Shown here: positions 14,801 through 57,431 of the stretch, piece by piece
Layout: every line of letters begins with the position of its first letter
How positions within the stretch are numbered: position 1 is the stretch's first letter
DNA from: Gammaproteobacteria bacterium
GTDB taxonomy: Bacteria > Pseudomonadota > Gammaproteobacteria > JABABF01
NCBI GenBank assembly: GCA_965215045.1
Contig: OZ244031.1
Span: 1,066,626 to 1,130,625, forward strand
Length of the DNA: 64,000 bases
Direction of reading: 5' to 3'
The notes under the pieces: model-generated
Seen by the model: only the letters and a program-made list of their open reading frames with translations
Databases searched by the model: none
Told to the model about the DNA's origin: nothing
Position numbers and translations under genes: made by a program

Positions 14801-14863
14801 GCCACCCCCCCTCTCAAGCCACCCCCCCTCTCAAAGCCACCCCCCCCCTCTCAAAGTCCCCCC
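14801..14863. repeat. three tandem copies of GCCACCCCCCCTCTCAAA (C7-C9 tracts); G7-G9 tracts on the minus-strand transcript
   Basis: Read directly. Lies in the 3' region immediately after the stop of the minus-strand paralog-1 gene (stop at 14851-14853). Four G-tracts in total give potential G-quadruplex or slippage behaviour. Confidence 0.8.
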
Positions 14864-15207
14864 CGGGTAACGATTGCGAGTATGCTCAGCTGGAGGAGGA
14901 CAATAATGCCGAACCCCCACCGTATCCATACGAAGGCCTGTTGGTTGCGTTTTTCAGACTCTTCATGGAGATACAGGCTGTATTTCTTAGACTCTTCATG
15001 GAGTTCCCGGCTGTATTTCTTAGCCTCTTCGTGGAGCTCCAGCATGCGCTGCTCAAGCTTCTCCAAGTCAGCGCGGATGGCCAGGCCCAGTTCTTTCACC
15101 ATGCTCGCCATCACCCGCAGGATACTGCGGATCTGCTGGTCGTCAAAGCCGGCTGCCTTCAGGTGTTCGCTCATGTCTTCGCGGTTTCGAAACGCTGGTT
15201 CAGTCAT
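14851..15207 (-). CDS. small membrane-anchored coiled-coil protein, paralog 1 of a three-member family (DUF1640-like architecture)
   Basis: 118 aa. Conserved N-terminus MTEPAFRNREDMSEHLKAAGFDDQQIRSIL..., 11-residue repeats (ELHEEAKKYSR/ELHEESKKYSL/YLHEESEKRNQ) and a C-terminal hydrophobic helix WIRWGFGIIVLLQLSILAIV. About 95 nt of 5' coding sequence plus the 5' leader are near-identical to the genes at 56679 and 57547. Confidence 0.6.
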   Translation of the reverse strand: MTEPAFRNREDMSEHLKAAGFDDQQIRSILRVMASMVKELGLAIRADLEKLEQRMLELHEEAKKYSRELHEESKKYSLYLHEESEKRNQQAFVWIRWGFGIIVLLQLSILAIVTRGGL

Positions 15208-19143: not shown

Positions 19144-20355
19144 ATGAGCGAGATCGACAAAGTGGTGCTGGCCTATTCCGGCGGCCTGGACACCTCGGTG
19201 ATTCTCAAGTGGCTGCAGGAGCAATATCACTGCGAAGTAGCGACTTTCACCGCCGACCTGGGCCAGGGCGAGGACCTGGCACCGGTGCGCGCCAAGGCGC
19301 AGGCCCTGGGTGTCCGGGAAATTCATATCGAGGACCTGCGCGAGGAGTTCGTGCGCGATTTCGTGTTCCCGATGTTTCGCGCCAACGCGCTGTACGAGGG
19401 GGAATACCTGCTGGGCACCGCCATCGCCCGGCCGTTGATCGCCCAGCGGCTGGCCGCACTCGCCCTGGCTGGCGGTGCGGACGCCGTCGCTCACGGTGCC
19501 ACCGGCAAGGGCAACGACCAGTTGCGTTTTGAATTTGGCATCGCCGCCCTGGCACCGCAGCTGCGTTGCATCGCCCCGTGGCGGGAGTGGGCGCTGCATT
19601 CGCGCACCGAACTTTTGCAGTATTGCGCCCAACACGGCATCGAGGTCGAGCACCAACGCGAGGGCGGTGCCCCGTACTCGATGGATGCGAACCTGTTGCA
19701 TATCTCCTACGAGGGCGGCCCCCTGGAAGACCCGGCCACTGCGCCCCCCCAGGATCTGTGGCGTTGGACCGTGGACCCGGCGTCGGCACCGGACCGGGCG
19801 GCGGAGGTGGAGATCGGCTTCCGCGCCGGGGACCCGGTGGCGGTGGACGGCCGGGAGTTGTCCCCGGCGACGCTGCTGGCGCATCTCAATGAACTGGGGG
19901 GTGCCCACGGCATCGGCCGGGCGGACCTCGTCGAGAACCGGTACATCGGTATCAAGTCGCGCGGCTGTTATGAAACCCCGGGTGGCACATTGCTGCTCTG
20001 CGCGCGCCGGGCACTGGAGTCGATCACCCTGGACCGCGAGGTCGCACACCTGAAGGAGAGCCTGATGCCGCGCTACGCCGGGTTGATCTACAACGGCTAC
20101 TGGTGGTCGCCGGAGCGGCGCATGCTGCAGGCGGCCATCGATGAATCCCAGGCGCCGGTCAACGGCCGGGTGCGCCTGTCTCTCTACAAGGGCAATGTGA
20201 GTATCCTGCAACGCCGTTCCGAAGACTCGCTGTTCGATGAACGTATCGCCACCTTCGAAGACGATGCGGGCACCTGGAACCAGGAGGATGCCGCGGGCTT
20301 TATCCGCCTCAATGCCCTGCGCCTGCGCCTGGATGCCCGCCGCCGGAAGCACTGA
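19144..20355 (+). CDS. argG: argininosuccinate synthase
   Basis: Start ATG 19144 (M69 of ORF 18940..20355). [10 protein letters not shown]-loop-like motif; 403 aa. Confidence 0.9.
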
Positions 20356-47093: not shown

Positions 47094-48500
47094 ATGCTGA
47101 TACCCGTCATTCTTGCCGGGGGCAGCGGTTCCCGCCTGTGGCCCCTGTCCCGGCGCCTGCACCCCAAGCAATTTCTACCCTTGAGCGGCGACAAGAGCAT
47201 GTTGCGCCAGACCCTGGAACGTTTGGATGTGCTGCCGGGGTGTGATGCGCCGATCGTGGTCTGTCACCGGGAGCACCGTTTCCTGGTCGCCGAGCAATTG
47301 CGCAGTGCCGGGTGTGCGGGGCCCGACGTGCTGCTGGAACCGGAGGGCAGGAACACGGCGCCCGCCATTGCGGTAGGCGCCTTGCGCGCCTTGCAACGCG
47401 CCGAAGATGCCGTCCTGCTGGTGCTGCCGGCAGACCATATTCTGGATGAACCCGCGGCCCTGGGCGTCGCGGTGCAGGCGGCGGAAACCCTGGCCGCACA
47501 GGAGTACCTGGTCACTTTCGGCGTTCCCGCCCGGGCGCCGAAAACCGGCTACGGTTATATCCGTTGCGGCGATGCGCTGGGTGAAGCCGGTTTCAAGGTG
47601 CGCAGCTTCGTGGAAAAACCTTCACGGGAACTGGCGCAACAGTACCTGGATGCGGGCGACTACCTGTGGAACAGCGGCATGTTTTTATTTGGCGCCGCGG
47701 AATACCTGCGGGAATTGGAACGCCTGGCACCGGAAATCTCCGCCGCCTGTCGTGCGGCGGTGCAGGCGGCGGAGAAGGACCTGGATTTCCTGCGCCTGCC
47801 GGAGGAGGAATACGCGCGTTGCCCGGCGGATTCCATCGATTACGCGGTGATGGAAAAAACCGCGCGCGCGGCGGTGACGCCATTGTCCTGCGGCTGGAGA
47901 GATGCGGGTGCCTGGTCGGAATTGTGGGCCGAGGAGGAACAGGATGCGGAGGGCAACGTGGTACTGGGAGACGTGGCGACCCTGGATGCGCGGGATTGCT
48001 ACCTGCGCAGTGAATCCCGCCTGCTCGCCGCCCTGGGGGTGCGGGACCTGGTGGTAGTGGAGACCGCGGATGCGGTGCTGGTCGCAGATCGCGAGCGGGC
48101 ACAACAGACCAGGGAACTGGTGCAGCTGCTGGAGTCCGGGGCGCGCCCGGAAGTCGAAGCCCACACCCGCGTCTACCGTCCCTGGGGGTATTACCAGACC
48201 CTGGAAAGCGGTGAGCGTTTCCAGGTCAAGCTGATCAACGTGACCCCCGGCCAGCGCCTGTCCCTGCAGATGCACCAGCAGCGCGCCGAGCACTGGGTGG
48301 TGGTGCGAGGCACGGCCACCGTGGTCTGCGAAGACAAGGAATTTACCCTGGAGACCGACCAGTCCACCTATATTCCGCTGGGCAGCCGGCACCGGCTGGC
48401 CAACGATACCGAGGATCCCCTGGAAATTATCGAAGTGCAGTCCGGTGCCTACCTGGGAGAGGATGATATCGTGCGTTTTGATGATGTCTATGGCCGCTGA
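47094..48500 (+). CDS. manC: bifunctional mannose-1-phosphate guanylyltransferase / mannose-6-phosphate isomerase (AlgA/ManC/XanB family)
   Basis: MLIPVILAGGSGSRLWPLSR nucleotidyltransferase N-terminus and C-terminal cupin (…GQRLSLQMHQQRAEHWVVVRG…). Confidence 0.85.
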   Translation: MLIPVILAGGSGSRLWPLSRRLHPKQFLPLSGDKSMLRQTLERLDVLPGCDAPIVVCHREHRFLVAEQLRSAGCAGPDVLLEPEGRNTAPAIAVGALRALQRAEDAVLLVLPADHILDEPAALGVAVQAAETLAAQEYLVTFGVPARAPKTGYGYIRCGDALGEAGFKVRSFVEKPSRELAQQYLDAGDYLWNSGMFLFGAAEYLRELERLAPEISAACRAAVQAAEKDLDFLRLPEEEYARCPADSIDYAVMEKTARAAVTPLSCGWRDAGAWSELWAEEEQDAEGNVVLGDVATLDARDCYLRSESRLLAALGVRDLVVVETADAVLVADRERAQQTRELVQLLESGARPEVEAHTRVYRPWGYYQTLESGERFQVKLINVTPGQRLSLQMHQQRAEHWVVVRGTATVVCEDKEFTLETDQSTYIPLGSRHRLANDTEDPLEIIEVQSGAYLGEDDIVRFDDVYGR

Positions 48501-48560
48501 GCGTCGGCCATGAGCGGGGAGCGGGAGCGGGGCGATGGGCAGGGCCCCGGTGCGTCGGCC

Positions 48561-49406
48561 ATGAGCGGCTCCCCGGTGCGCAAGTGCCTGTTCCCGGTGG
48601 CGGGCTACGGCACGCGCTTTCTGCCGGCGACCAAGTCGATGCCCAAGGAGATGCTGCCGATCGTCGACAAGCCGCTGGTGCACTTTGGCGTCGAGGAGGC
48701 CTTGCGAGCGGGCATGACCGAGATCGCCTTTGTCACCGGGCGCGGCAAACAGGCGATCACCGACTATTTCGACATCAGCTACGAACTGGAGGAGGAGATT
48801 CGCGGCACCCCCAAGGAGGAGCGCCTGGGCACGGTGCGCGACCTGTTGCAGGAGGGGCGTTTTACCTTTACCCGGCAGCGGAAAATCCAGGGCCTGGGAC
48901 ACGCGGTGCTGGCCGGCGGCGTATTGATCGGCGAGGAGCCTTTTGGCGTGGTGCTCTCCGATGACCTGTGCCTCAACGAGGGGGCGGGAGTGATGGCGCA
49001 ACTGGCGCGGGTGTTTGACGAACACCGCTGCTGCGTGGTGGCGGTCGAAGAGATCAACGACCCCGAAGTCCTGCAACGTTTCGGCGTGGTCGATGGCCGG
49101 GAGATCGCCCCGGGCCTGCTGGAAGTGAACGCCATGGTCGAAAAACCCGCCCCGGGCACGGCACCGAGCAAGCTGGCAATCCTGGGGCGCTACCTGTTGA
49201 CGCCGGACATTTTCGCGCGCCTGGAAAAACTGTCGCCGGGCAAAAACAACGAGATTCAACTGACCGACGCCCTGGAGCAGCAGGCGCGGGAGGAGCGGGT
49301 GCTGGCGTGGCGCATTCATGGCCGGCGCTTCGATTGCGGCGATGTCGCCGGTTACGTGGAAGCAACCAATTTCTATTACCGGAAATTTTATCTTGGGCGG
49401 GACTGA
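48561..49406 (+). CDS. galU: UTP--glucose-1-phosphate uridylyltransferase
   Basis: ...FPVAGYGTRFLPATKSMPKEMLPIVDKP... matches GalU. Two in-frame ATGs (48510 and 48561) lie in a duplicated 17-mer gcgtcggccatgagcgg; the downstream one is chosen. Confidence 0.8.
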   Translation: MSGSPVRKCLFPVAGYGTRFLPATKSMPKEMLPIVDKPLVHFGVEEALRAGMTEIAFVTGRGKQAITDYFDISYELEEEIRGTPKEERLGTVRDLLQEGRFTFTRQRKIQGLGHAVLAGGVLIGEEPFGVVLSDDLCLNEGAGVMAQLARVFDEHRCCVVAVEEINDPEVLQRFGVVDGREIAPGLLEVNAMVEKPAPGTAPSKLAILGRYLLTPDIFARLEKLSPGKNNEIQLTDALEQQAREERVLAWRIHGRRFDCGDVAGYVEATNFYYRKFYLGRD

Positions 49407-49478
49407 GCGCCCGGCGGCGGAGTGCAGCCGGGCAGGCGGCGCACGGCGGGGTGCGCACCCGGTGGCGGAGTGCGGCCG

Positions 49479-50834
49479 ATGAGTACGCTGCCCGGTTGTT
49501 TCAAGGCCTATGATGTGCGCGGCCGCGTGCCGCAGGAGTTGGACCCGGAACTGGCCCGGCGCATCGGCCGCGTGCTGGTGGATTTCCTGGGCGCGCGCCG
49601 CATCGCGGTCGGCTGGGATGTGCGGCACAGTTCCCCGGCCCTGGTGGAGGCCTTGTGCGAGGGTATCTGCAGTGCCGGTGCAGACGCCTGTACGATCGGC
49701 CTGTGCGGCACCGAAGAAATGTATTTCACCGTGTTTGACCGCGGGCTGGACGGCGGCGTCATGGTCACGGCCAGTCACAATCCCCCGGAATACAACGGCA
49801 TGAAAATCGTGCGCGAGGATGCCCGGCCGCTCAGTGCGGACACCGGCTTGTGGGAGCTGGGCACCCGGGTGGCGAACGGGGCCTGCGCGCGACCCGCGCG
49901 CGCCCCCCGGGGCCGGGTCCGGCACCTGCGACCGCGCGCCGCGTACGTGCGCAAACTGCTGTCTTTCGTGGAGACGGAGCGCTTGCGTCCGTTTCGCATC
50001 GTCTCCAACCCGGGCAATGGCGGCGCCGGTGAAATTATCGATCGCCTGGAACCGTGCCTGCCCTTTGAATTCATTCGCCTGCAGCATCGGCCCGACGGCG
50101 ATTTTCCGCACGGCGTGCCGAACCCGATGCTGGAGCAGAACCGCAGTCGCACCGCCCGGGCGGTGCGCCGACATCGGGCGGATTTCGGCCTCGCCTGGGA
50201 CGGGGATTTCGATCGCTGTTTTTTCTTCGATGAAAGCGGCGGCTTCATCGAGAGTTACTACTTGATCGGCCTGCTGGCAAAGAGTTTCCTGCACCGCAGT
50301 CCCGGGGCGGCGGTGGTCTACGAGCCGCGCCTGGTCTGGAACACCCTGGAGGCGGTCACAGGGAGCGGCGGCCGGGCGGTGCAGAGCAAGGCCGGGCATG
50401 CGTTTATCAAGGAAATCATGCGGCGGGAGGATGCGGTCTACGGCGGGGAGATGAGCGCACACCACTATTTTCGCGACTTCCGCTACTGCGACAGCGGCAT
50501 GATTCCCTGGTTGCTGGTCGCAGAATTGATGAGCGATGCCGGCGTTCCGCTCTCCCGCCTGCTGGATTGCCGACGCTTTCCGTGCAGTGGCGAGATCAAT
50601 CGTCCGGTGCAGAATGCCGCCCGGGTGATGGAGCGGGTGAAGGCGCACTACCGGGCATCGGCGCAATCGGTGGAGCACGTAGACGGTCTCAGTCTCGCTT
50701 TTGCCGACTGGCGTTTCAACCTGCGGCCCTCCAACACCGAGCCCCTGCTGCGTCTCAACGTGGAGAGCCGCGCCGACGAGGTGCTGCTGGCGCAGAAGAC
50801 CGCCGAGTTGCTGGAGTTGATCGACGGCAGTTAA
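49479..50834 (+). CDS. algC: phosphomannomutase/phosphoglucomutase
   Basis: ATG 49479 (M20 of ORF 49422..50834). FKAYDVRG N-terminus, TASHNP phosphoserine loop, GGEMSAHHYF sugar-binding motif. Confidence 0.85.
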   Translation: MSTLPGCFKAYDVRGRVPQELDPELARRIGRVLVDFLGARRIAVGWDVRHSSPALVEALCEGICSAGADACTIGLCGTEEMYFTVFDRGLDGGVMVTASHNPPEYNGMKIVREDARPLSADTGLWELGTRVANGACARPARAPRGRVRHLRPRAAYVRKLLSFVETERLRPFRIVSNPGNGGAGEIIDRLEPCLPFEFIRLQHRPDGDFPHGVPNPMLEQNRSRTARAVRRHRADFGLAWDGDFDRCFFFDESGGFIESYYLIGLLAKSFLHRSPGAAVVYEPRLVWNTLEAVTGSGGRAVQSKAGHAFIKEIMRREDAVYGGEMSAHHYFRDFRYCDSGMIPWLLVAELMSDAGVPLSRLLDCRRFPCSGEINRPVQNAARVMERVKAHYRASAQSVEHVDGLSLAFADWRFNLRPSNTEPLLRLNVESRADEVLLAQKTAELLELIDGS

Positions 50835-50841
50835 GCGCGTC

Positions 50842-52443
50842 TCAGTCCCGGTACCAGCTCGCCCACCGTCGCACCGTCGGTGAAACTTCGGCCTCCTTGC
50901 CGGCGAGCACCGCCCGCACCTCCGTCCCGATGGTCTTGCCCAGTTCCACCCCCCACTGGTCAAAGCAGTTGATATCCCACACCGCCGCGGCCGTGTAGAC
51001 GCGGTGTTCCCAGAGTGCCAGCAGTGCGCCCAGGCCCCGCGCATCCAGGGTGTCCAGGGCGAGCAGGCTGACGGGACGCCCGCCGGGAATACTGAGATGC
51101 GGGGCCAGCGTTTGCGCATCGGCCGGCGTCCACCCGCGGCGCACCAGCGCAGCACTCGCCTCCCCCGGGCTGCGCCCGCCGCTGAGTGCCTGTACCTGGG
51201 CCAGGCAGTGGGCCCACAGCTCCCGGTTGCGCGGCTCCTTGCGCCGTTCCCGGCCGCGGCGCACCAGCACGAATTCGACCGCTGCTTCCGGCGTGCCCTG
51301 GTAGAGCAATTGGTGGAAGCTGTGCTGACTTTCAGGGCCCGGCCCGCCCCACAGGACCGGCGCCGTGGCGTATTGCACCGGCTCGCCGCTGTTCTGCACC
51401 GACTTGCCATTGCTCTCCATCAGCAACTGTTGCAGGAATTCCGGCAGCCCGCGCAGGCGGTACGCGTAGGGAACCACGGCCCGCGCCCGGTGCCCGCAGA
51501 AGCTGGCGTGCCAGACGTCGAGCAGGCCCAGCAGCAGCGGCAGGTTCTGTGCCGGTGCGGTGCTGCGAAAATGCGCGTCCATCTGCGCCGCCCCGCGCAA
51601 CAATGCACGCCAGCGGGCATTGCCGTCCCGCAGTGCCAGCGGCAGCGCCATGGCCGACCACAGGGAATAGCGCCCGCCGATGCTGCCGGGAAACGGCAGG
51701 ATCGCCTCTTGTGGCACGCCCAGGCCGTGCACGGTCTCCGGGTTGGCGGTCACGGCCACGAAATGGCCGTCGATCGACGCCTCCCTGCCGGCCGCACCCC
51801 GCAGCCACTTGCGCGCCGCGCGGATATTCTGCAGCACCTCGCGCGTGGCCCCGGACTTGGAAGCCAGGATAAACAGCGTGTTTTGCGCTGCGAGCGTGTG
51901 CATGACCGCATCCCACTCCTCGCCATCGATGCCGCCCAGGAAGTGGCAGCGCAGCCCGCCCTGCCGCGCCGCCAATGCCTGCGTCAGCAAGCGCGGGCCC
52001 AGCAGGGAACCGCCGATGCCCACGTGCACCACATCGCGGAACGGCGCCCCGCTGAAACCGCGCCGACGACCGCTGCGCAACTGCGTGACCAGGGCCTCCG
52101 CCTGCCGCTGCGTTGCGCGCAACTGCCGCTGCGTTGCGCGCAAGCCCGGCGGGGCCGCCCCCGGTGCGGTTCGCAGCAGCGGATGCAGCACCTGGCGTCC
52201 CTCGCTGACATTGACCGGGGCACCCGCAAACAGGGCCTCGATCTTGCGTGCCACCCCGGTCTCCTGCGCCAGTTGCAGCAACAGCTCCAGGCACTGCGAG
52301 CCGGGCAGGGCGTGGCTGAGATCGGCGTGGATGCCCGCCGCTGTAAAGTGCAGCGGCCGTTGTTCCCGCGGCTCACCGCCCGGCGCGCCCTGTCGATATT
52401 TGCGCAGCGCCCGCCAGGCGGGCAGGGTGTCCGGCCCGGGCAT
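50842..52443 (-). CDS. pgi: glucose-6-phosphate isomerase
   Basis: ...TxAWxALxxHxxx... N-terminus and ...NRAVLHVALR...GGRYSLWSA... Pgi signatures; 533 aa. Confidence 0.85.
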   Translation of the reverse strand: MPGPDTLPAWRALRKYRQGAPGGEPREQRPLHFTAAGIHADLSHALPGSQCLELLLQLAQETGVARKIEALFAGAPVNVSEGRQVLHPLLRTAPGAAPPGLRATQRQLRATQRQAEALVTQLRSGRRRGFSGAPFRDVVHVGIGGSLLGPRLLTQALAARQGGLRCHFLGGIDGEEWDAVMHTLAAQNTLFILASKSGATREVLQNIRAARKWLRGAAGREASIDGHFVAVTANPETVHGLGVPQEAILPFPGSIGGRYSLWSAMALPLALRDGNARWRALLRGAAQMDAHFRSTAPAQNLPLLLGLLDVWHASFCGHRARAVVPYAYRLRGLPEFLQQLLMESNGKSVQNSGEPVQYATAPVLWGGPGPESQHSFHQLLYQGTPEAAVEFVLVRRGRERRKEPRNRELWAHCLAQVQALSGGRSPGEASAALVRRGWTPADAQTLAPHLSIPGGRPVSLLALDTLDARGLGALLALWEHRVYTAAAVWDINCFDQWGVELGKTIGTEVRAVLAGKEAEVSPTVRRWASWYRD

Positions 52444-52446
52444 CGT

Positions 52447-53415
52447 CTATTCGCTGCGTTCCACGGCCACGGCTGCCAGCTGCACCAGGCCTTCCCGGTA
52501 ACCGGAATCCGGCAGGGGCGTCAATGCCTCCAGCGCGCGCTCACGATGCTGCCGCGCCTGTTGCAGAGTGTATTCCAGGGCACCGCAATCGCGCACCGCC
52601 TGTTGCACCCCGGCGAACGGCCGGGCCTCCTCCGGTGCGGCGAGTGCCGCACGGACCAGCTGGCGGACGGCATCGTCCGCCGTGCACAGCGCGGCGATCA
52701 GTGGCAGGGTGATTTTCCCTTCCCGCAGGTCCTGGCCCGCCGGTTTGCCCATGACCGCGGCATCGCCGTCGTAGTCCAGCACGTCATCGCGCAACTGGAA
52801 TGCGAGTCCCAACTGCAGGCCGAACTCCCCCAGGGCATCGCAGTGCTCCCGCGTCGCCCCGGACAGCAGCGCACTGCAGCGCGCAGCCGACTGGAACACC
52901 AGCGCGGTCTTGGCCGTGATCAGCGCAAAATATTCCTCCTCCCCGAGCTCCAGGTCCCCGATGCGGGACAGCTGCAACACCTCGCCCTCGGCCAGCCGGT
53001 TGCCGGTATCGGTCATGCAGTTCAGCACCTCGACGTTGTCGGTCCGAAACAGCATTTGAAAGGCGCGCGAATAGAGAAAATCCCCGACCAGCACGCTGGC
53101 GGAGTTGCCCCAGTGGTTGTTGGCACTGGGGCGCCCGCGCCGCTGCATCGCCCCGTCGACCACGTCGTCGTGCAGCAGCGTGGCGGTATGCAGGAACTCC
53201 ACCGCGGCCGCCAGGTGCAGGTGCCGTTCATCGATGTCCCCGCAGCAGCCGGCGGCCAGCAGGGCCAGCAGCGGGCGCAGCCGCTTGCCGCCGGCAAAGG
53301 TGATGTGCCCGCCGACATCATCCGTCAGCCGGGCGCGCGAGCGCAGGTTTTTCTGCAACAGAGTCTCGACTTCCGCGAGTTCTCTCTGCACGGGAAGGTA
53401 CACGGCCTGCATCAT
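52447..53415 (-). CDS. ispB: octaprenyl-diphosphate synthase (trans-polyprenyl synthase)
   Basis: First DDxxD (LLHDDVVDGAMQRRG) and second DDxxD (FQLRDDVLDY) motifs; 322 aa. Confidence 0.85.
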   Translation of the reverse strand: MMQAVYLPVQRELAEVETLLQKNLRSRARLTDDVGGHITFAGGKRLRPLLALLAAGCCGDIDERHLHLAAAVEFLHTATLLHDDVVDGAMQRRGRPSANNHWGNSASVLVGDFLYSRAFQMLFRTDNVEVLNCMTDTGNRLAEGEVLQLSRIGDLELGEEEYFALITAKTALVFQSAARCSALLSGATREHCDALGEFGLQLGLAFQLRDDVLDYDGDAAVMGKPAGQDLREGKITLPLIAALCTADDAVRQLVRAALAAPEEARPFAGVQQAVRDCGALEYTLQQARQHRERALEALTPLPDSGYREGLVQLAAVAVERSE

Positions 53416-53551
53416 TCGGAGACACGAGGGGTTTCGGGGCCGGGTATTATCGCGTATTGCCGGTGGTTTTCGCAGGCCGCCGGCGGGCGATTGCTATAAT
53501 CGCGGCGTATTGCACCGCGATGTAATTTTTGCGACACCGGGACCCTGCACC

Positions 53552-54697
53552 ATGAGTATTCGAGATTTTCCCATCCGGATTTCCGACGAGGAAATCGCCG
53601 ACCTGCACCGACGCCTGGACAACGTCCGCTGGGGCGATGAACTCAACGATGCAGACTGGAGCTACGGTGCCGACATGCACTGGATCAAACGGCTGTGCGA
53701 CTACTGGCGCACGGATTTCGACTGGCGCGCCCAGGAAGCGCAACTGCAGCGTTTCGAACACTTCATTGCCGATACCGCGGGCGGCCAGGAAATTCACTTC
53801 ATTCATCATCGCTCCCGACACGAGAAAGCGCGCCCCCTGGTGATCACCCACGGCTGGCCCGGTTCGGTGTTCGAGTTCATGAAAATCATCGAACCGCTGG
53901 CAGATCCCGCCGCGCACGGGGGCCGCACAGAAGACGCCTTTCACGTGGTCTGTCCCTCGCTGCCGGGCTTCGGTTTTTCGCCACCGCCGACCGAACCCGG
54001 CATGGACCCCCGACGCGCCGCCGCCTGCCAGGTCGAGTTGATGAAGCAGCTGGGCTACAGCCGCTACATCGCCCAGGGCGGCGACTGGGGTGCCATGATC
54101 AGCACCGAGATGGGACGCCAGGACCCGGAAAACTGCGCCGGCGTGCATCTGAACATGCTGGTGGCGATGCCGCCTGCGGACGGGGATCCGATGGCGGGGC
54201 TGAGCGACGAGGAGAAACTCAACATGCAGACCTCCGAACAGTTCAGCAAGGAGGGGATGGGTTATTTTCATATCCAGAGCACCAAGCCGCAGACCCTGTC
54301 GTACGCGCTCAATGATTCGCCGGTGGGCCTGGCCGCGTGGATTGCCGAAAAGTTCCGCGCCTGGAGCGACTGCGACGGCGATGTGGAAAAGGTTTACACC
54401 CTCGATGAATTGCTGGCCAACATCTCGCTCTACTGGTTCACCCGCACCGCGGGCTCTTCGGCGCGCATGTACTACGAGACCATGCACAACGAGCAGAGCA
54501 CTGCCCGGGTGGAGGTTCCGACCGGTGCCGTGCTGTTTCCCAGGGAGTTGATGAAAGCCCCGCGTAAATGGGCGGAGGCCGCCTACAATATTGTCCACTG
54601 GAGCGTGATGTCCAAGGGGGGACATTTTGCGGCGATGGAACAGCCGGAGCTGCTGGTCGGGGATATCCGCAGCTTTGCCGCCTGCCTCAAAGACTGA
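53552..54697 (+). CDS. epoxide hydrolase (microsomal EH-like alpha/beta hydrolase with N-terminal EH domain)
   Basis: ...PIRISDEEIADLHRRLDNVRW... EH N-domain, HGWPGS oxyanion motif, nucleophile region QGGDWGA; 381 aa. Confidence 0.8.
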   Translation: MSIRDFPIRISDEEIADLHRRLDNVRWGDELNDADWSYGADMHWIKRLCDYWRTDFDWRAQEAQLQRFEHFIADTAGGQEIHFIHHRSRHEKARPLVITHGWPGSVFEFMKIIEPLADPAAHGGRTEDAFHVVCPSLPGFGFSPPPTEPGMDPRRAAACQVELMKQLGYSRYIAQGGDWGAMISTEMGRQDPENCAGVHLNMLVAMPPADGDPMAGLSDEEKLNMQTSEQFSKEGMGYFHIQSTKPQTLSYALNDSPVGLAAWIAEKFRAWSDCDGDVEKVYTLDELLANISLYWFTRTAGSSARMYYETMHNEQSTARVEVPTGAVLFPRELMKAPRKWAEAAYNIVHWSVMSKGGHFAAMEQPELLVGDIRSFAACLKD

Positions 54698-55083
54698 GGG
54701 AGACCCTGTCGGCTCCGCCCACCCGCCCCCGGCTGCCGCACCGGCTGCGGCTTCCTGCTCCTGCACCGCCCGCAGGCCCCTCGGCTGCCGCACCGCCTAC
54801 CCGCCTCTCCCCCGCTGTGCACCCCCGGACCGGGCCGCTTGCATTTTGTGTTGAAGTATGAATAATGCCCACTAAACTCTGTTTCAACCAAGCCGCGTAC
54901 AGTTGTGTATCGATTCATAACTGTTCATAAGGATCTCGATTCACCTGCGTTATCAAAGCGGTCAGTTTCGCTTTCTCTTGCCGGGCTGGCATCCCTTAAC
55001 AACAAGACAATAAAACCTGCGGGACTGGTATCGGCCTGATGCCCGCGCAAATAGAATTAACAAACCTGGCGGCTGGTGCTGCC

Positions 55084-55832
55084 ATGCCAAGGCACGCCAG
55101 GCACCCCAGGTGCGGCCCAGCGCAGACGGGGCCAAAATGCACCATAGAGAAAGCGGACTTCTCGGTGTTTCTCAATCGGCTGCCAGCAGGATCTGTTGAC
55201 TTGGTGCTGACCGACCCGCCTTATACAATCAGCCGCGAGACCGGTTTTGCCAATGTGGGGAAGAACGGGGTACAGCGGTTTGCAGTCTCTATGGACTTCG
55301 GTAAATGGGATAAGGTGCCGATTGACCTTGCCAGACTGTCGACGGATATGTACAGGACATTGCGTAAAGGCGGTACAGCAATCGTGTTTTATGACCTGTG
55401 GAAGTTAACGCATTTAGCGGACGCCCTGAGGACAGCGGGTTTCAAAATGTTGCGCTTGATTGAATGGCAAAAGACGAACCCGGTACCGTTGAACAGCAAG
55501 GCCACCTACCTCTCAAACAGCAGGGAGATCGCGGTCGTCGGTGTGAAGGGCGGCAAGCCACCTTCAATGGAGAGTATGACAACGGCGTTTACCGGTATCC
55601 CATCCCGCGGCACAATGGGCGCCGCATTCACCCGACGCAAAAGCCATTGGAATTGTTTGCCGAACTGGTGGAACGGCATACCAATGCCGGTGATTTTGTC
55701 GTCGACCCTTTCTTGGGCGGCGGCACGACTGCTGTCGCCGCATTATCAAAGGCGCGCCGTTTTGCCGGTTGTGATATTGACCCGGGATATGTCGAGGCGT
55801 CGAAGGAACGGCTCAAGATTGATGTCAAGTAA
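55084..55832 (+). pseudogene. beta-class DNA methyltransferase (DPPY motif IV then FxGxG motif I; N6-adenine type likely) interrupted by a -1 frameshift near 55550-55562
   Basis: Frame 1: ...SVDLVLTDPPYTISRETG...WQKTNPVPLNSKATYLSNSREIAVVGVKGGKP|PSME... Frame 3 continues ...TFNGEYDNGVYRYPIPRHNGRRIHPTQKPLELFAELVERHTNAGDFVVDPFLGGGTTAVAA... to TAA 55830-55832. The shift occurs in the G-rich stretch gaagggcggcaagccacc. Confidence 0.65.
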
Positions 55833-56433
55833 TCCAACTTTCCGGGAGGGCACGAAAGCGGCTGTTTTTATTGAGCTTGCCAGGCCGGACCAGGATGGCT
55901 TTTCCCGGAAAGTAAGCCTCGCAGAACTGGAAGAGCACGGGCTGGGAATGGGCAACGGCGGGAGTTGGTGCAGAAGGGATAGCGCATTGGGCATGCGCTA
56001 CAACATCCATCGGGAACTGCACAAGGGAAAGATAGTGGCAGTGGCATTGCACGGCTTCAACCAACTGCCGGCGAGGCGGGCAATACGGGCGGATATCAAA
56101 AAGGTGATCAAAAAACAGCGCTGTGCCGTACTGGATACCGGTCATCCTGAATGTGACCATAAGGACGGGCGCATTTATGATAAACCGGTTATGGAAATGA
56201 GCCAGCAGAGCGAGGAAGACTTTCAAGCACTGTCCAAGGCGGCAAATATGGCAAAGCGGCAACATTGCCGGAAATGTAAAGAAACCGGCCAGCGGTATGA
56301 TGCCAGGAATTTAGGCTATTCCATACCGCAGTTCAAGGGCAATGGAATTTATAGAGGAAGTTGTGTGGGTTGCTACTGGCATGACCCGAGGGCATTCAAT
56401 CGAGCGGTGAGCGACCGGGCAAGCCGCAAATAA
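55825..56433 (+). CDS. HNH-family endonuclease, putative Type II restriction enzyme partner of the methyltransferase
   Basis: ATG 55825 overlaps the methyltransferase stop by 8 nt. HNH/zinc-finger pattern ...C-AVLDTGHPECDHKDG...N...HCRKCK... and ...CVGCYWHD; 202 aa; no frameshift. Confidence 0.55.
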   Translation, partial: SSNPTFREGTKAAVFIELARPDQDGFSRKVSLAELEEHGLGMGNGGSWCRRDSALGMRYNIHRELHKGKIVAVALHGFNQLPARRAIRADIKKVIKKQRCAVLDTGHPECDHKDGRIYDKPVMEMSQQSEEDFQALSKAANMAKRQHCRKCKETGQRYDARNLGYSIPQFKGNGIYRGSCVGCYWHDPRAFNRAVSDRASRK

Positions 56434-56563
56434 TCCCCATTATTTCCAGGTTTTCCTGTTCCTCCGGGCCAGCCCGCAGGCCTCTCCCCCGCTGTGCACC
56501 CCGGACGATGAGCCTCCAGAATCCCATAAATTATGGACTTATATATTTTCCCGCAGGCGCGGT

Positions 56564-56592
56564 TTGACTTTCCCGCAGGAGGTGAATACAGT
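56564..56592 (+). promoter_or_regulatory. near-consensus sigma70 promoter of paralog 2 (TTGACT-17-TACAGT), flanked by a direct repeat of TTCCCGCAGG
   Basis: TTGACT 56564-56569, 17-nt spacer, TACAGT 56587-56592. TTCCCGCAGG occurs at about -50 and again within the spacer. Followed by an 80-nt conserved leader with a CCTCTggaaAGAGG hairpin, then AGGAGA ribosome-binding site and ATG 56679. Confidence 0.6.
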
Positions 56593-56678
56593 GTGATGCA
56601 GGGGGCCAGGGATTAGCAATCACAGGACGCGCGTATTACTTTCGCCCTCTGGAAAGAGGCAAAAAGGAGATTGTCACC

Positions 56679-57080
56679 ATGACTGAACCAGCGTTTCGAA
56701 ACCGCGAAGACATGAGCGAACACCTGAAGGCAGCCGGCTTTGACGACCAGCAGATCCGCAGTATCCTGCAGGTGGTAGCGGGGCTGATGAAAGAGATGGG
56801 CCTGGCCATCCGCGCCGACTTGGCGAAGAGTGAGCAGCGCAGCGATGAGCGTCATGAACGGGCCCAGAAACTCAGCGATGAGCGTCATGAACGGGCCCAG
56901 AAACTCAGCGATGAGCGTCATGAACGGGCCCAGAAACTCAGCGATGAGCGTCATCAGATCAACCTGGAATTGCATAAACAGGCCTTCTTATGGATACGGT
57001 GGGGGTTCGGCATGATCGGGTCTTTCCTGCTCGCCCTCCTGGGCATACTGATCACAGGTGTTATCAGGGGGTGGTTGTGA
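56679..57080 (+). CDS. small membrane-anchored coiled-coil protein, paralog 2 (DUF1640-like architecture)
   Basis: 133 aa. Same N-terminal 50 aa as paralogs 1 and 3. 3.5 copies of SDERHERAQKL from a perfect 33-bp DNA repeat at 56841-56957. C-terminal helix WIRWGFGMIGSFLLALLGILITGVI. Confidence 0.65.
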   Translation: MTEPAFRNREDMSEHLKAAGFDDQQIRSILQVVAGLMKEMGLAIRADLAKSEQRSDERHERAQKLSDERHERAQKLSDERHERAQKLSDERHQINLELHKQAFLWIRWGFGMIGSFLLALLGILITGVIRGWL

Positions 57081-57097: not shown

Positions 57098-57220
57098 CAT
57101 CGCCCAGGGCGGCGACTGGGGTGCCCTGATCAGCACCGAGATGGGGCACCAGGACCCGGAAAACTGCGCCGGCGTGCACCTGAACATGCTGGTGGCGATG
57201 CCGCCTGCCTCAAAGACTGA
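57098..57220 (+). pseudogene. internally deleted fragment of the epoxide hydrolase gene (remnant of a tandem duplication)
   Basis: 57098-57204 matches hydrolase 54067-54177 (…IAQGGDWGA(M>L)ISTEMG…NMLVAMPP) and is joined at the 9-bp microhomology gccgcctgc to the last 12 nt of the hydrolase (ctcaaagactga; 54686-54697), removing about 508 bp. It carries several substitutions relative to the intact gene. Confidence 0.7.
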
Positions 57221-57431
57221 GGGAGACCCTGTCGGCTCCGCCCACCCGCCCCCCGGCTGCCGCACCGCCCGCGGTTTCCTGCTCCCGCACCGCCTGCCCC
57301 CGGCTGCCGCACCGGCTGCGGTTTCCTGCTCCTGCACCGCCCGCAGGCCTCTCCCCCGCTGTGCACCCCCGGACGATGACCCTCCAGAATCCCATAAATT
57401 ATGGACTTATATATTTTCCCGCGGGCGCGGG

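What the first reader, a model, noticed from the sequence alone, without database searches (positions are those of the whole stretch)
55500..55600. Methyltransferase carries a -1 frameshift in a G-rich run while its cognate HNH nuclease is intact
The methyltransferase reads in frame 1 through motif IV (DPPY) to ...GVKGGKP, then requires frame 3 (TFNGEYDNGVYRYPIPRHNGRRIHPTQKP...DPFLGGGTT, motif I) to finish. The shift lies in gaagggcggcaagccacc. A restriction enzyme without its methylase should be lethal. So the frameshift is a sequencing or assembly error, or the nuclease is inactive or non-restricting (HNH nickase or orphan), or the site is a slippage-based phase-variable switch, or the methyltransferase is made by programmed frameshifting. 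Each possibility is informative.
Basis: seen in the sequence. Interest (0 to 1): 0.6.

Follow-up and report, generated by a model that had tools for sequence, protein, structure and literature searches.

The report
One-base deletion breaks restriction-system methylase
A small, horizontally acquired restriction-modification gene pair (NlaIII/IceA1 type) has its protective methylase gene broken by one missing C. The same gene is intact in near-identical DNA from other samples, so this is an ordinary private mutation or an assembly error, not a programmed switch.

Summary
A beta-class N6-adenine DNA methyltransferase (PF01555) runs in frame 1 from 55039 to ...GVKGGK-P, then in frame 3 from 55560 (TFNGEYDNG...) to the stop at 55830-55832. 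The next gene (55822-56433) is an intact PF05315/ICEA nuclease, the NlaIII/IceA1 family of the His-Me (HNH) superfamily.

The lesion is one missing C in a CCC run, not in the G run. The window reads AAGCCACC at 55555-55562. Two independent Illumina metagenome contigs that are 99-100% identical read AAGCCCACC and encode an uninterrupted methylase.

Programmed frameshifting is refuted: there is no slippery heptamer, no downstream structure (z +1.66), and 28 aligned plus 37 surveyed homologues are all single-frame. Phase variation is refuted because the tract is only 2-3 nt long.

What remains is a genuine strain-private null mutation or a consensus error. I lean towards the genuine mutation (about 55:35). 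At least 30 other genes in the window are intact, and 12.7 kb compared with a short-read genome of the same species shows no indels. Only the reads can settle it.

If the deletion is real, it also reads ribosomes through into the nuclease frame, giving a 464-aa fusion. That could blunt toxicity, but the open frame itself is a chance feature. Interest is low.

The parts
54803..54830 (+). Left copy of the direct repeat that brackets the R-M cassette (GCCTCTCCCCCGCTGTGCACCCCCGGAC)
   Evidence: It matches 56480-56506 at 27 of 28 positions, and gapped similarity extends to about 55 bp. An uninterrupted paralogous copy of the site lies at 57322-57398.
54831..55038 (+). 5' non-coding leader of the cassette, low in GC
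   Evidence: GC is about 0.54-0.57 here against 0.654 for the window. Homology to L001 and L082 continues through it. No strong sigma-70 consensus was found.
55039..55559 (+). Methyltransferase, N-terminal part in frame 1. It carries motif IV DPPY at 55213-55224 and ends ...GVKGGK + CC of the Pro codon.
   Evidence: The start MPAQ is shared with the 86%-identical relative L082/P0122.
55558..55559 (+). Site of the lesion: CC where relatives have CCC (Pro159 codon), a 1-nt deletion
   Evidence: The window has AAGCCACC. L001 (ERZ21849000) and L083 (ERZ21848999) have AAGCCCACC, and L082 has AGCCCCACC.
55560..55832 (+). Methyltransferase, C-terminal part in frame 3 (TFNGEYDNG...). Motif I DPFLGGGTT is at 55704-55730 and the stop TAA at 55830-55832.
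   Evidence: tblastn finds two HSPs in different frames.
55822..56433 (+). Intact NlaIII/IceA1-family (PF05315) His-Me finger restriction endonuclease, 203 aa. The catalytic D112-H113 codons are at 56155-56160. The ATG overlaps the methylase stop by 11 nt (ATGTCAAGTAA).
   Evidence: Pfam E 1e-40 over profile positions 1-202 of 218. All invariant residues are kept. The AF2 model has pLDDT 88.7, with a beta-beta-alpha element at residues 110-155. The DNA is 100% identical to L001.
55039..56433 (+). 464-aa read-through ORF created by the deletion: methylase N-half, then about 88 out-of-frame codons, then the whole nuclease
   Evidence: The open alternative frame is unremarkable: it occurs in 12% of codon-order shuffles and in 26% of 88-codon windows of host genes.
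56480..56506 (+). Right copy of the direct repeat that brackets the cassette

Best explanation
This is a two-gene Type IIP restriction-modification cassette of the NlaIII/IceA1 kind. It comprises a small beta-class N6-adenine methyltransferase followed by a His-Me finger (HNH) nuclease, and probably recognises CATG. The cassette is about 1.65 kb and lower in GC than its host. It was inserted, with a duplicated 28-55 bp target, into a repeat-rich spot downstream of an epoxide-hydrolase gene in an uncultured gammaproteobacterium.

In this assembly the methylase is broken by loss of one C from a CCC run (Pro159 codon, 55558-55559). The break is not programmed. It is private to this sequence, and the ancestral in-frame allele exists in closely related strains.

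I take it as most likely a genuine, very recent loss-of-function mutation in this strain.

Shown: the identity of both genes, the exact lesion, its absence from near-identical alleles, the intact nuclease, and purifying selection on both genes in the lineage.

Inferred: that the deletion is real rather than a consensus error, and how the cell survives it. Two survival routes are plausible. First, the deletion sends ribosomes into the nuclease frame, so the nuclease is made only as a 464-aa fusion and loses its termination-reinitiation coupling. Second, an unlinked methylase of the same specificity may protect the genome.
For: Identity of the genes:
- PF01555 E 3.7e-32, full length on the repaired protein, and PF05315 ICEA E 1e-40.
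- ICEA is the family of NlaIII and IceA1 within the His-Me superfamily.
- The methylase-then-nuclease order recurs in L003, L006, L007 and L011 and in 37 metagenome loci.

The lesion:
- A single extra C in L001 and L083 is the only coding indel.
- L083 is a single adapter-flanked Illumina fragment with 0 mismatches over 795 bp.

Not programmed:
- The junction is gap-free in 28 homologues and no methylase is split in 37 surveyed pairs.
- The RNA downstream folds no better than shuffles (z +1.66).

The system was functional until recently:
- dN/dS is 0.16 for the methylase and 0.14 for the nuclease against the 86%-identical L082.
- The nuclease keeps all invariant residues.

Assembly quality argues against an artefact:
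- At least 30 other genes in the window are uninterrupted with full-length Pfam coverage.
- 12.7 kb aligned to a short-read MAG of the same species (GCA_964348175.1) shows 43 substitutions and 0 indels.
- 948 bp of L084 are identical to the window.

Plausibility of a private mutation:
- At least three strains at 0.1-0.5% divergence exist, so a strain-private mutation is plausible.
- A second case of methylase frameshift with intact nuclease exists in this family: L012, an Illumina MAG at 34x coverage.

Recent acquisition:
- GC is 0.54 against 0.654 for the window.
- The cassette is flanked by a direct repeat, and an uninterrupted paralogous site is present.
Against: A nuclease identical to the one in methylase-plus strains faces 234 CATG sites in 64 kb with no avoidance (O/E 0.93). 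It should be lethal without methylation (PMC3488263).

No second DNA methylase lies in the window.

The state 'methylase split, nuclease intact' is rare: 1 of 43 other pairs.

The allele is otherwise identical to an in-frame Illumina fragment, which is exactly what a consensus error would look like.

The reads were not available. The genome, a 2.08-Mb contig that is probably long-read, could not be retrieved.

CATG specificity is inferred from family membership only.
Confidence: 0.55

Rival explanations
1. Consensus or base-calling error. The real genome has CCC and an intact methylase, and the assembly dropped one C in a short homopolymer.
For: Two independent Illumina-derived contigs from the same population show CCC. 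One is identical to the window at every other base over 795 bp.

The intact, selected nuclease and the unavoided CATG sites make a true null biologically costly.

The source is a single 2.08-Mb contig. This suggests long reads, whose residual errors are homopolymer indels (general knowledge).
Against: No other indel was seen in about 14.5 kb compared with short-read assemblies outside the repeats.

No other broken gene was found among at least 30 checked.

A 3-nt run is an unusual place for a residual long-read error.

At Q50, the expected chance of an error landing in this 795-bp gene is below 1% (my estimate).
Confidence: 0.35
2. Phase-variable switch. Slipped-strand mispairing at the tract turns the methylase on and off in the population.
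For: Tract length differs between the window (CC) and its relatives (CCC). Phase-variable R-M methylases are well known in other bacteria (PMC3874152).
Against: The tract is only 2-3 nt, and the longest run nearby is GGG. Known contingency tracts are much longer homopolymers or multi-copy short repeats (general knowledge).

Homologues have ordinary codons here with no repeat expansion.

None of the 37 surveyed relatives has a split methylase.
Confidence: 0.03
3. Programmed -1 ribosomal frameshifting, or transcriptional slippage, produces full-length methylase from the shifted gene.
For: The required shift is -1, and the two halves together make a complete enzyme.
Against: There is no X XXY YYZ heptamer at GGC GGC AAG CCA CCT, and the P-site CCA to GCC re-pairing is poor.

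The 121-nt downstream RNA is less stable than its shuffles (z +1.66; 198 of 200 shuffles fold at least as well).

There is no long A or T run for RNA-polymerase slippage.

The frameshift is absent from all homologues and from 99-100% identical alleles.
Confidence: 0.02
4. Split enzyme. The N-terminal fragment (motifs IV-VIII) and a separately translated C-terminal fragment (ATG 55464, frame 3, motifs X and I-III) reassemble into an active methylase.
For: A frame-3 ORF with an ATG at 55464 covers the whole C-terminal half. Naturally split methylases exist, such as M.AquI and M.EcoHK31I (from memory, not checked here).
Against: There is no Shine-Dalgarno sequence before 55464 (sequence).

The N-terminal fragment does not terminate. 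It runs on into the nuclease as a 464-aa fusion.

The arrangement is derived from an intact gene by a single private deletion. No homologue is split this way.
Confidence: 0.03

Closest known systems
NlaIII (Neisseria lactamica) and IceA1-HpyI (Helicobacter pylori) CATG restriction-modification systems
   Same: The nuclease belongs to the same Pfam family (PF05315 ICEA, E 1e-40, near full length). It has the His-Me finger catalytic pattern (D-H ... N ... H) and four cysteines. It is paired with an N6-adenine methylase of the beta (motif IV before motif I) architecture.
   Different: In this cassette the methylase gene comes first and overlaps the nuclease start. In H. pylori iceA1 precedes hpyIM (from memory).

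The methylase here is a small enzyme of about 265 aa. Its closest solved relatives are the H. pylori 'DpnA'-annotated enzyme 5hek/5hfj and CcrM. Orthology to M.NlaIII or M.HpyI was not tested.

CATG specificity is inferred, not shown.

In H. pylori the nuclease is usually the gene that decays while the methylase is kept (from memory). Here the methylase is the broken one.
Solitary restriction endonucleases (Ershova et al. 2012, PMC3488263)
   Same: An apparently intact Type II nuclease gene without a functional linked methylase gene.
   Different: Here the methylase gene is still present and only one base away from intact, so the state is extremely recent or artefactual. Whether an unlinked methylase exists, as predicted for 57 of 272 cases in that study, cannot be checked in a 64-kb window.
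R-M insertion with long target duplication (Furuta et al. 2010, PMC2853133)
   Same: A methylase and nuclease alone, with no integrase or transposase, lower in GC than the host, and bracketed by a direct repeat of host sequence. A single uninterrupted copy of that sequence exists elsewhere.
   Different: The clean repeat is 28 bp (27 of 28); it reaches about 55 bp only with gaps. That study's threshold was more than 30 bp.

The 'empty site' is a paralogous copy in the same genome, not an orthologous site in another strain.

The region is itself made of short GC-rich repeats, so a chance insertion between repeats is not excluded.
Phase-variable Type II/III methylases (phasevarions)
   Same: A methylase ORF whose reading frame depends on the length of a mononucleotide run.
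   Different: The run is 2-3 nt instead of a long tract. There is no sign of repeated switching, and relatives have ordinary codons at the site.

Membership tests
NlaIII/IceA1-type Type IIP R-M system | The nuclease is a member of PF05315 (ICEA) | tested here: met
   E 9.9e-41, 140 bits against a cut-off of 24, residues 11-197 on profile positions 1-202 of 218. All 120 listed homologues carry PF05315.
NlaIII/IceA1-type Type IIP R-M system | His-Me finger catalytic and zinc-binding residues are intact | tested here: met
   All 27 invariant columns are kept: C101, D112, H113, G116, N142, K145, C149, C152, C181, C184 and the rest. The only departure is P136A at a position that is at least 90% conserved. 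The AF2 model has strands 110-113 and 117-119 plus helix 139-155. Foldseek against the PDB gave no significant hit; the best HNH hits had E above 5. The fold is therefore supported by family and literature, not by structure search.
NlaIII/IceA1-type Type IIP R-M system | An adjacent cognate N6-adenine methyltransferase | tested here: met
Motif IV is DPPY and motif I is DPFLGGGTT. The same methylase-nuclease pairing occurs in 4 genome loci and 37 metagenome loci. In this window the ORF is interrupted.
NlaIII/IceA1-type Type IIP R-M system | Recognition of CATG and methylation of its adenine | not testable with these tools
   This is inferred from family membership only. CATG is not avoided in the window (O/E 0.93).
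Programmed -1 ribosomal frameshift | A slippery heptamer X XXY YYZ at the shift site | tested here: not met
   The sequence is G GGC GGC AAG CCA CCT TCA, with no such heptamer.
Programmed -1 ribosomal frameshift | A downstream stimulatory RNA structure | tested here: not met
   MFE is -31.2 against a shuffle mean of -37.4, z +1.66.
Programmed -1 ribosomal frameshift | Conservation of the two-frame organisation among relatives | tested here: not met
   28 aligned homologues and 37 surveyed loci are single-frame. The 99-100% identical alleles are in frame.
Phase-variable (contingency) methylase | A long homopolymer or multi-copy short repeat inside the ORF | tested here: not met
   The tract is CC against CCC, and the longest neighbouring run is GGG. 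TRF finds no array in the gene.
R-M insertion with long target duplication | An insert under 20 kb holding both R and M and no other mobility genes | tested here: met
   The cassette is 1.65 kb with two genes.
R-M insertion with long target duplication | Flanking direct repeat over 30 bp that is single-copy at the empty site of a related genome | tested here: inconclusive
   The repeat is 27 of 28 bp clean and about 55 bp with gaps. The uninterrupted copy is paralogous (57322-57398), not orthologous. Contigs of the related MAG break at these repeats.

The most novel reading that the evidence does not exclude
The deletion is genuine and survivable because of where it lies. The cassette makes its nuclease by termination-reinitiation at an ATG that overlaps the methylase stop. 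A 1-nt deletion anywhere in the last third of the methylase puts ribosomes into the nuclease frame, which happens to be open. The same mutation that kills the methylase therefore also replaces free nuclease with a 464-aa fusion carrying half a methylase and about 88 junk residues. That would be a 'self-disarming' route by which an addictive R-M system can be lost without killing its host.
Probability: 0.12. Interest if true: 0.45.

Novelty: new member of a known kind. Interest (0 to 1): 0.2.

Why it matters
The finding matters little beyond annotation.

It shows that this methylase should be annotated as a frameshifted or pseudogene copy, or corrected, of an NlaIII/IceA1-type system. It should not be annotated as a recoding or phase-variation site.

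If the deletion is real, the strain would be a natural case of an intact Type II nuclease that has outlived its methylase by one mutation. That case could be used to ask how cells escape post-segregational killing: through a fusion, loss of translational coupling, or a redundant methylase.

The cassette's clean insertion between duplicated host sequence adds one more example of R-M mobility without mobility genes. It lies in a little-known, probably sponge-associated gammaproteobacterial lineage.

Tried and rejected
1. Programmed frameshifting: no slippery site, no structure, not conserved.

2. Phase variation: the tract is too short.

3. Is the 464-aa methylase-nuclease read-through ORF a designed feature? 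No. The open alternative frame occurs in 12% of codon-order shuffles and 26% of host 88-codon windows. None of the 120 best nuclease homologues is a methylase-nuclease fusion; all are 159-258 aa with PF05315 only.

4. CATG avoidance as a sign of long-term restriction pressure: absent (O/E 0.93).

5. A second methylase in the window: none found.

6. A general indel problem in the assembly: not seen.

8. Retrieving the window's own genome or its gene calls failed:
- Exact look-ups of the 464-, 449-, 203-, 133-, 122- and 222-aa products returned nothing.
- ArgG is 100% identical to a protein on a 2.08-Mb contig, but the contig could not be fetched.

9. A JGI metagenome scan with a pattern accepting CC, CCC or CCCC at the site gave 0 hits.

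10. The indels between L001 and the window at 56497, 56606 and 56639 lie in a substitution-rich repeated intergenic region. They say nothing about homopolymer error.

Full report
**What is in the sequence**

Frame 1 starts at ATG 55039 and reads ...LPAGSVDLVLTDPPYTISRETGF...NSREIAVVGVKGGKP, then continues as non-homologous sequence. Frame 3 reads ...ATFNGEYDNGVYRYPIPRHNGRRIHPTQKPLELF...VVDPFLGGGTTAVAAL...RLKIDVK* and stops at 55830-55832.

Joined at K-P|T-F, the protein matches PF01555 (N6_N4_Mtase) over the whole profile (1-221 of 221, E 3.7e-32). Its motif order is the beta-class order, with DPPY before FxGxG.

The next ORF, 55822-56433 (203 aa), matches PF05315 ICEA (E 9.9e-41). Its ATG overlaps the methylase stop by 11 nt (ATGTCAAGTAA). 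PF05315 is the family of the restriction endonucleases NlaIII and IceA1. It is classified in the His-Me finger (HNH) superfamily (PMC5714182; PMC2441816).

**Where exactly the frame breaks**

A search of 5.8 billion proteins with the repaired methylase gave more than 3,400 relatives, and the best has 99% identity. Its contig, L001 (ENA ERZ21849000, 2,592 bp), aligns to window 54055-56643 at 99.0% identity. It carries the same flanking hydrolase gene and encodes an uninterrupted methylase.

- The only indel inside coding sequence is one extra C: AAGCCCACC in L001 against AAGCCACC in the window (55555-55562).
- A second contig from another sample, L083 (ERZ21848999), is identical to the window at all 794 other aligned bases and also has CCC. 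L083 still carries Illumina adapters at both ends, so it is essentially one sequenced fragment.
- A third, more distant relative, L082 (JGI 3300007151, 86% DNA identity), has AGCCCCACC and is in frame.
- In an alignment with 28 homologues the junction GVKGGKP|TF is gap-free, and P159 and T160 are at least 90% conserved.

The lesion is therefore a 1-nt deletion in the CCC of the Pro159 codon, with CC left at 55558-55559.

**Programmed recoding and phase variation are excluded**

- There is no X XXY YYZ heptamer at G GGC GGC AAG CCA CCT.
- The 121 nt from 55540 fold less well than their shuffles (z +1.66; 198 of 200 shuffles fold at least as well).
- There is no long A or T run for transcriptional slippage.
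- All 28 aligned homologues are single-frame, and so are all 37 metagenomic loci where this methylase family sits directly upstream of an ICEA nuclease.
- The tract is 2-3 nt long, far below what slipped-strand switches use, and TRF finds no array in the gene.

**The nuclease looks functional, and the system was under selection**

In an alignment of 30 family members, the window protein keeps all 27 invariant residues. These include C101, D112-H113, N142, K145, C149, C152, C181 and C184. It differs only by P136A at a position that is at least 90% conserved. That substitution is shared with L001, whose nuclease DNA is 100% identical.

An AlphaFold model is confident (pLDDT 88.7). It places H113 at the end of a beta-hairpin followed by helix 139-155, as expected for a beta-beta-alpha-metal site. 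Foldseek against the PDB found nothing significant, and a PDB sequence search was empty. The fold assignment therefore rests on family and literature.

Against the 86%-identical L082, dN/dS is 0.16 for the methylase and 0.14 for the first 110 nuclease codons. Both genes have therefore been maintained by selection in this lineage.

CATG, the family's known site, occurs 234 times in the window and is not avoided (O/E 0.93). An active, unopposed nuclease would therefore have thousands of targets in the genome.

**Is the deletion real or an artefact?**

This cannot be settled without reads, but several facts bear on it.

*Background on the source.* The window comes from a 2,082,957-bp contig present in NCBI and ENA. 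ArgG is 100% identical to a protein on that contig, and the next best hits are only 72-74% identical, from Gammaproteobacteria, Porticoccaceae and Microbulbifer. I could not retrieve the contig.

*Facts against a sloppy assembly:*
- At least 30 other genes in the window are uninterrupted with end-to-end Pfam coverage. They include nrdA, nrdB, argF-like OTCase, proS, aroB, aroK, pilQ-like secretin, PBP1A, metF, metK, uvrA, selO, pyrC, argG, adk, hemH, hemC, hemD, fabA, fabB, pgi and ispB.
- Two contigs of a fragmented, short-read-style MAG of the same species (GCA_964348175.1) align to the window over 7,097 and 5,626 bp at 99.8% and 99.5% identity, with 43 substitutions and no indel.
- L084 matches the window perfectly over 948 bp.
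- Outside the repeats, the methylase site is the only indel in about 16 kb of comparison.

*Strain variation.* L001, GCA_964348175.1 and the window differ from one another at different positions. At least three strains at 0.1-0.5% divergence therefore exist, and a strain-private mutation is plausible.

*Facts favouring an artefact:*
- The allele is otherwise identical to an in-frame Illumina fragment.
- A true null next to an intact nuclease should be strongly counter-selected (PMC3488263).
- Among other methylase-nuclease pairs of this family, only 1 of 43 has a split methylase with an intact nuclease. That case is L012, a Clostridiales MAG at 34x coverage, with a 1-nt loss at AAAAAAGCGG.
- The usual direction of decay is also seen once: in L010 the nuclease is frameshifted and the methylase is intact.

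*Weighing.* I compared a chance below 1% that a high-quality consensus error lands in this 795-bp gene with a roughly 2% observed frequency of this state in the family. On that basis I lean 55:35 towards a genuine, very recent mutation. These are my estimates, not measurements.

**How a real deletion could be tolerated (inference)**

The nuclease has no Shine-Dalgarno sequence at the usual distance; the nearest match, AAGGAA, is 14 nt upstream. Its ATG lies inside the last codons of the methylase gene. In L003 the two genes overlap as ATGA. This layout suggests termination-reinitiation coupling.

After the deletion, ribosomes stay in frame 1, which is the nuclease frame and is open. The product is a 464-aa protein: half a methylase, about 88 junk residues, then the nuclease. 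That might lower or abolish free nuclease.

The open frame is not a designed feature. It occurs in 12% of codon-order shuffles and in 26% of comparable stretches of host genes. None of the 120 best nuclease homologues is a fusion.

The other route is protection by an unlinked methylase. Relatives of this methylase are about ten times more numerous than relatives of the nuclease (over 3,400 against 288), and five of eleven close genomic relatives have no ICEA nuclease nearby. Orphan methylases of this kind are therefore common. None lies in the window.

**Context**

The cassette (54831-56479) has GC of about 0.54 against 0.654 for the window. It carries no mobility gene. It is bracketed by GCCTCTCCCCCGCTGTGCAC(C)CCCGGAC (54803-54830 and 56480-56506, 27 of 28 bp, about 55 bp with gaps). 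An uninterrupted paralogous copy of the site lies at 57322-57398. This resembles the 'insertion with long target duplication' described for R-M systems (PMC2853133), although the clean repeat is just under that study's 30-bp threshold.

Substitution density inside the cassette between the window and L001 is similar to the genomic background. The cassette therefore predates the split of these strains.

The nearest methylase relatives in genomes come from sponge-associated MAGs: a Cycloclasticus symbiont, Poribacteria, Aggregatilineales, Dehalococcoidia and Latescibacterota.

**Verdict**

The element is an ordinary NlaIII/IceA1-type R-M cassette and a new member of a known kind. The interruption is a private single-base deletion. 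It is neither recoding nor a switch. Whether it is biological or a consensus error is open (about 55:35). Interest is low unless reads show it to be real, in which case the strain is a convenient natural test of how an R-M system can be lost from the methylase side.

Noticed in passing
window 54803-54830, 56480-56506, 57322-57398: The 1.65-kb R-M cassette (GC 0.54 against 0.654) is bracketed by a 27/28-bp direct repeat that reaches about 55 bp with gaps. An uninterrupted paralogous copy of the site lies 0.9 kb downstream. This looks like R-M insertion with long target duplication and no mobility genes.
   Followed up: partly
window 56679-57080 (+), 57547-58215 (+), 14851-15207 (-): Three paralogous small genes begin MTEPAFRNREDMSEHLKAAG.... 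They share a conserved N-terminus and upstream region, a C-terminal transmembrane helix, and a central coiled-coil built from tandem repeats of varying number. One has a 33-nt unit x3.5 at 100% identity; another has 75/108-nt units x3.8. There is only a weak sub-threshold Pfam hit to CCDC90-like (E 2e-4). The function is unknown, and this may be a rapidly varying surface or membrane protein family.
   Followed up: partly
window 54067-54177 vs 57098-57208; 54676-54830 vs 57199-57374: An internal 111-bp piece of the epoxide-hydrolase gene (96% identical) is duplicated 3 kb downstream. There it is fused directly to the last 22 nt of that gene plus its GC-rich downstream repeats. This is the scar of a segmental duplication that also copied the repeat-protein gene.
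   Followed up: partly
window 54719-54782, 57250-57344: GC-rich 25/47-nt tandem units (CCGCACCGCCCGCGGTTTCCTGCTCC...) lie downstream of the hydrolase stop. They form the target region into which the cassette inserted.
   Followed up: no
whole window: CTAG is almost absent (2 observed against 22.4 expected, O/E 0.09) and TCGA is over-represented (O/E 1.61). CATG is not avoided (O/E 0.93).
   Followed up: no
L165, L166 (GCA_964348175.1) vs window 47699-54795 and 58184-63809: A fragmented MAG of the same species is 99.5-99.8% identical to the window with zero indels over 12.7 kb. Its contigs end exactly at the repeats flanking the R-M and repeat-gene region, so that region is missing from the MAG. 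At least three strains of this organism are in public data.
   Followed up: yes
L012 4001-5419; L010 4001-5301: In relatives, L012 (a Clostridiales MAG) has the same kind of state: the methylase is frameshifted by 1 nt at AAAAAAGCGG and the nuclease is intact. L010 has the opposite state, with the nuclease frameshifted and the methylase intact.
   Followed up: partly
L085-L164 (metagenome loci): Only 37 of 80 ICEA-family nucleases have a methylase of this small beta-class family directly upstream. The other 43 have none within 2.5 kb, so the nuclease family must pair with at least one other methylase family.
   Followed up: no
L083 1-47 and 843-894: A public metagenome contig (ERZ21848999 NODE_96455) carries Illumina adapter sequence at both ends, so untrimmed adapters are present in that deposited assembly.
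   Followed up: no
window, whole (ArgG 19144-20355): The host is a deep-branching gammaproteobacterium. Its ArgG is only 72-74% identical to the nearest named relatives (Porticoccaceae, Microbulbifer, Thioalkalivibrio). It sits on a 2.08-Mb single contig at 65% GC. The cassette's closest relatives are in sponge-symbiont MAGs, which suggests a sponge-associated lifestyle.
   Followed up: partly
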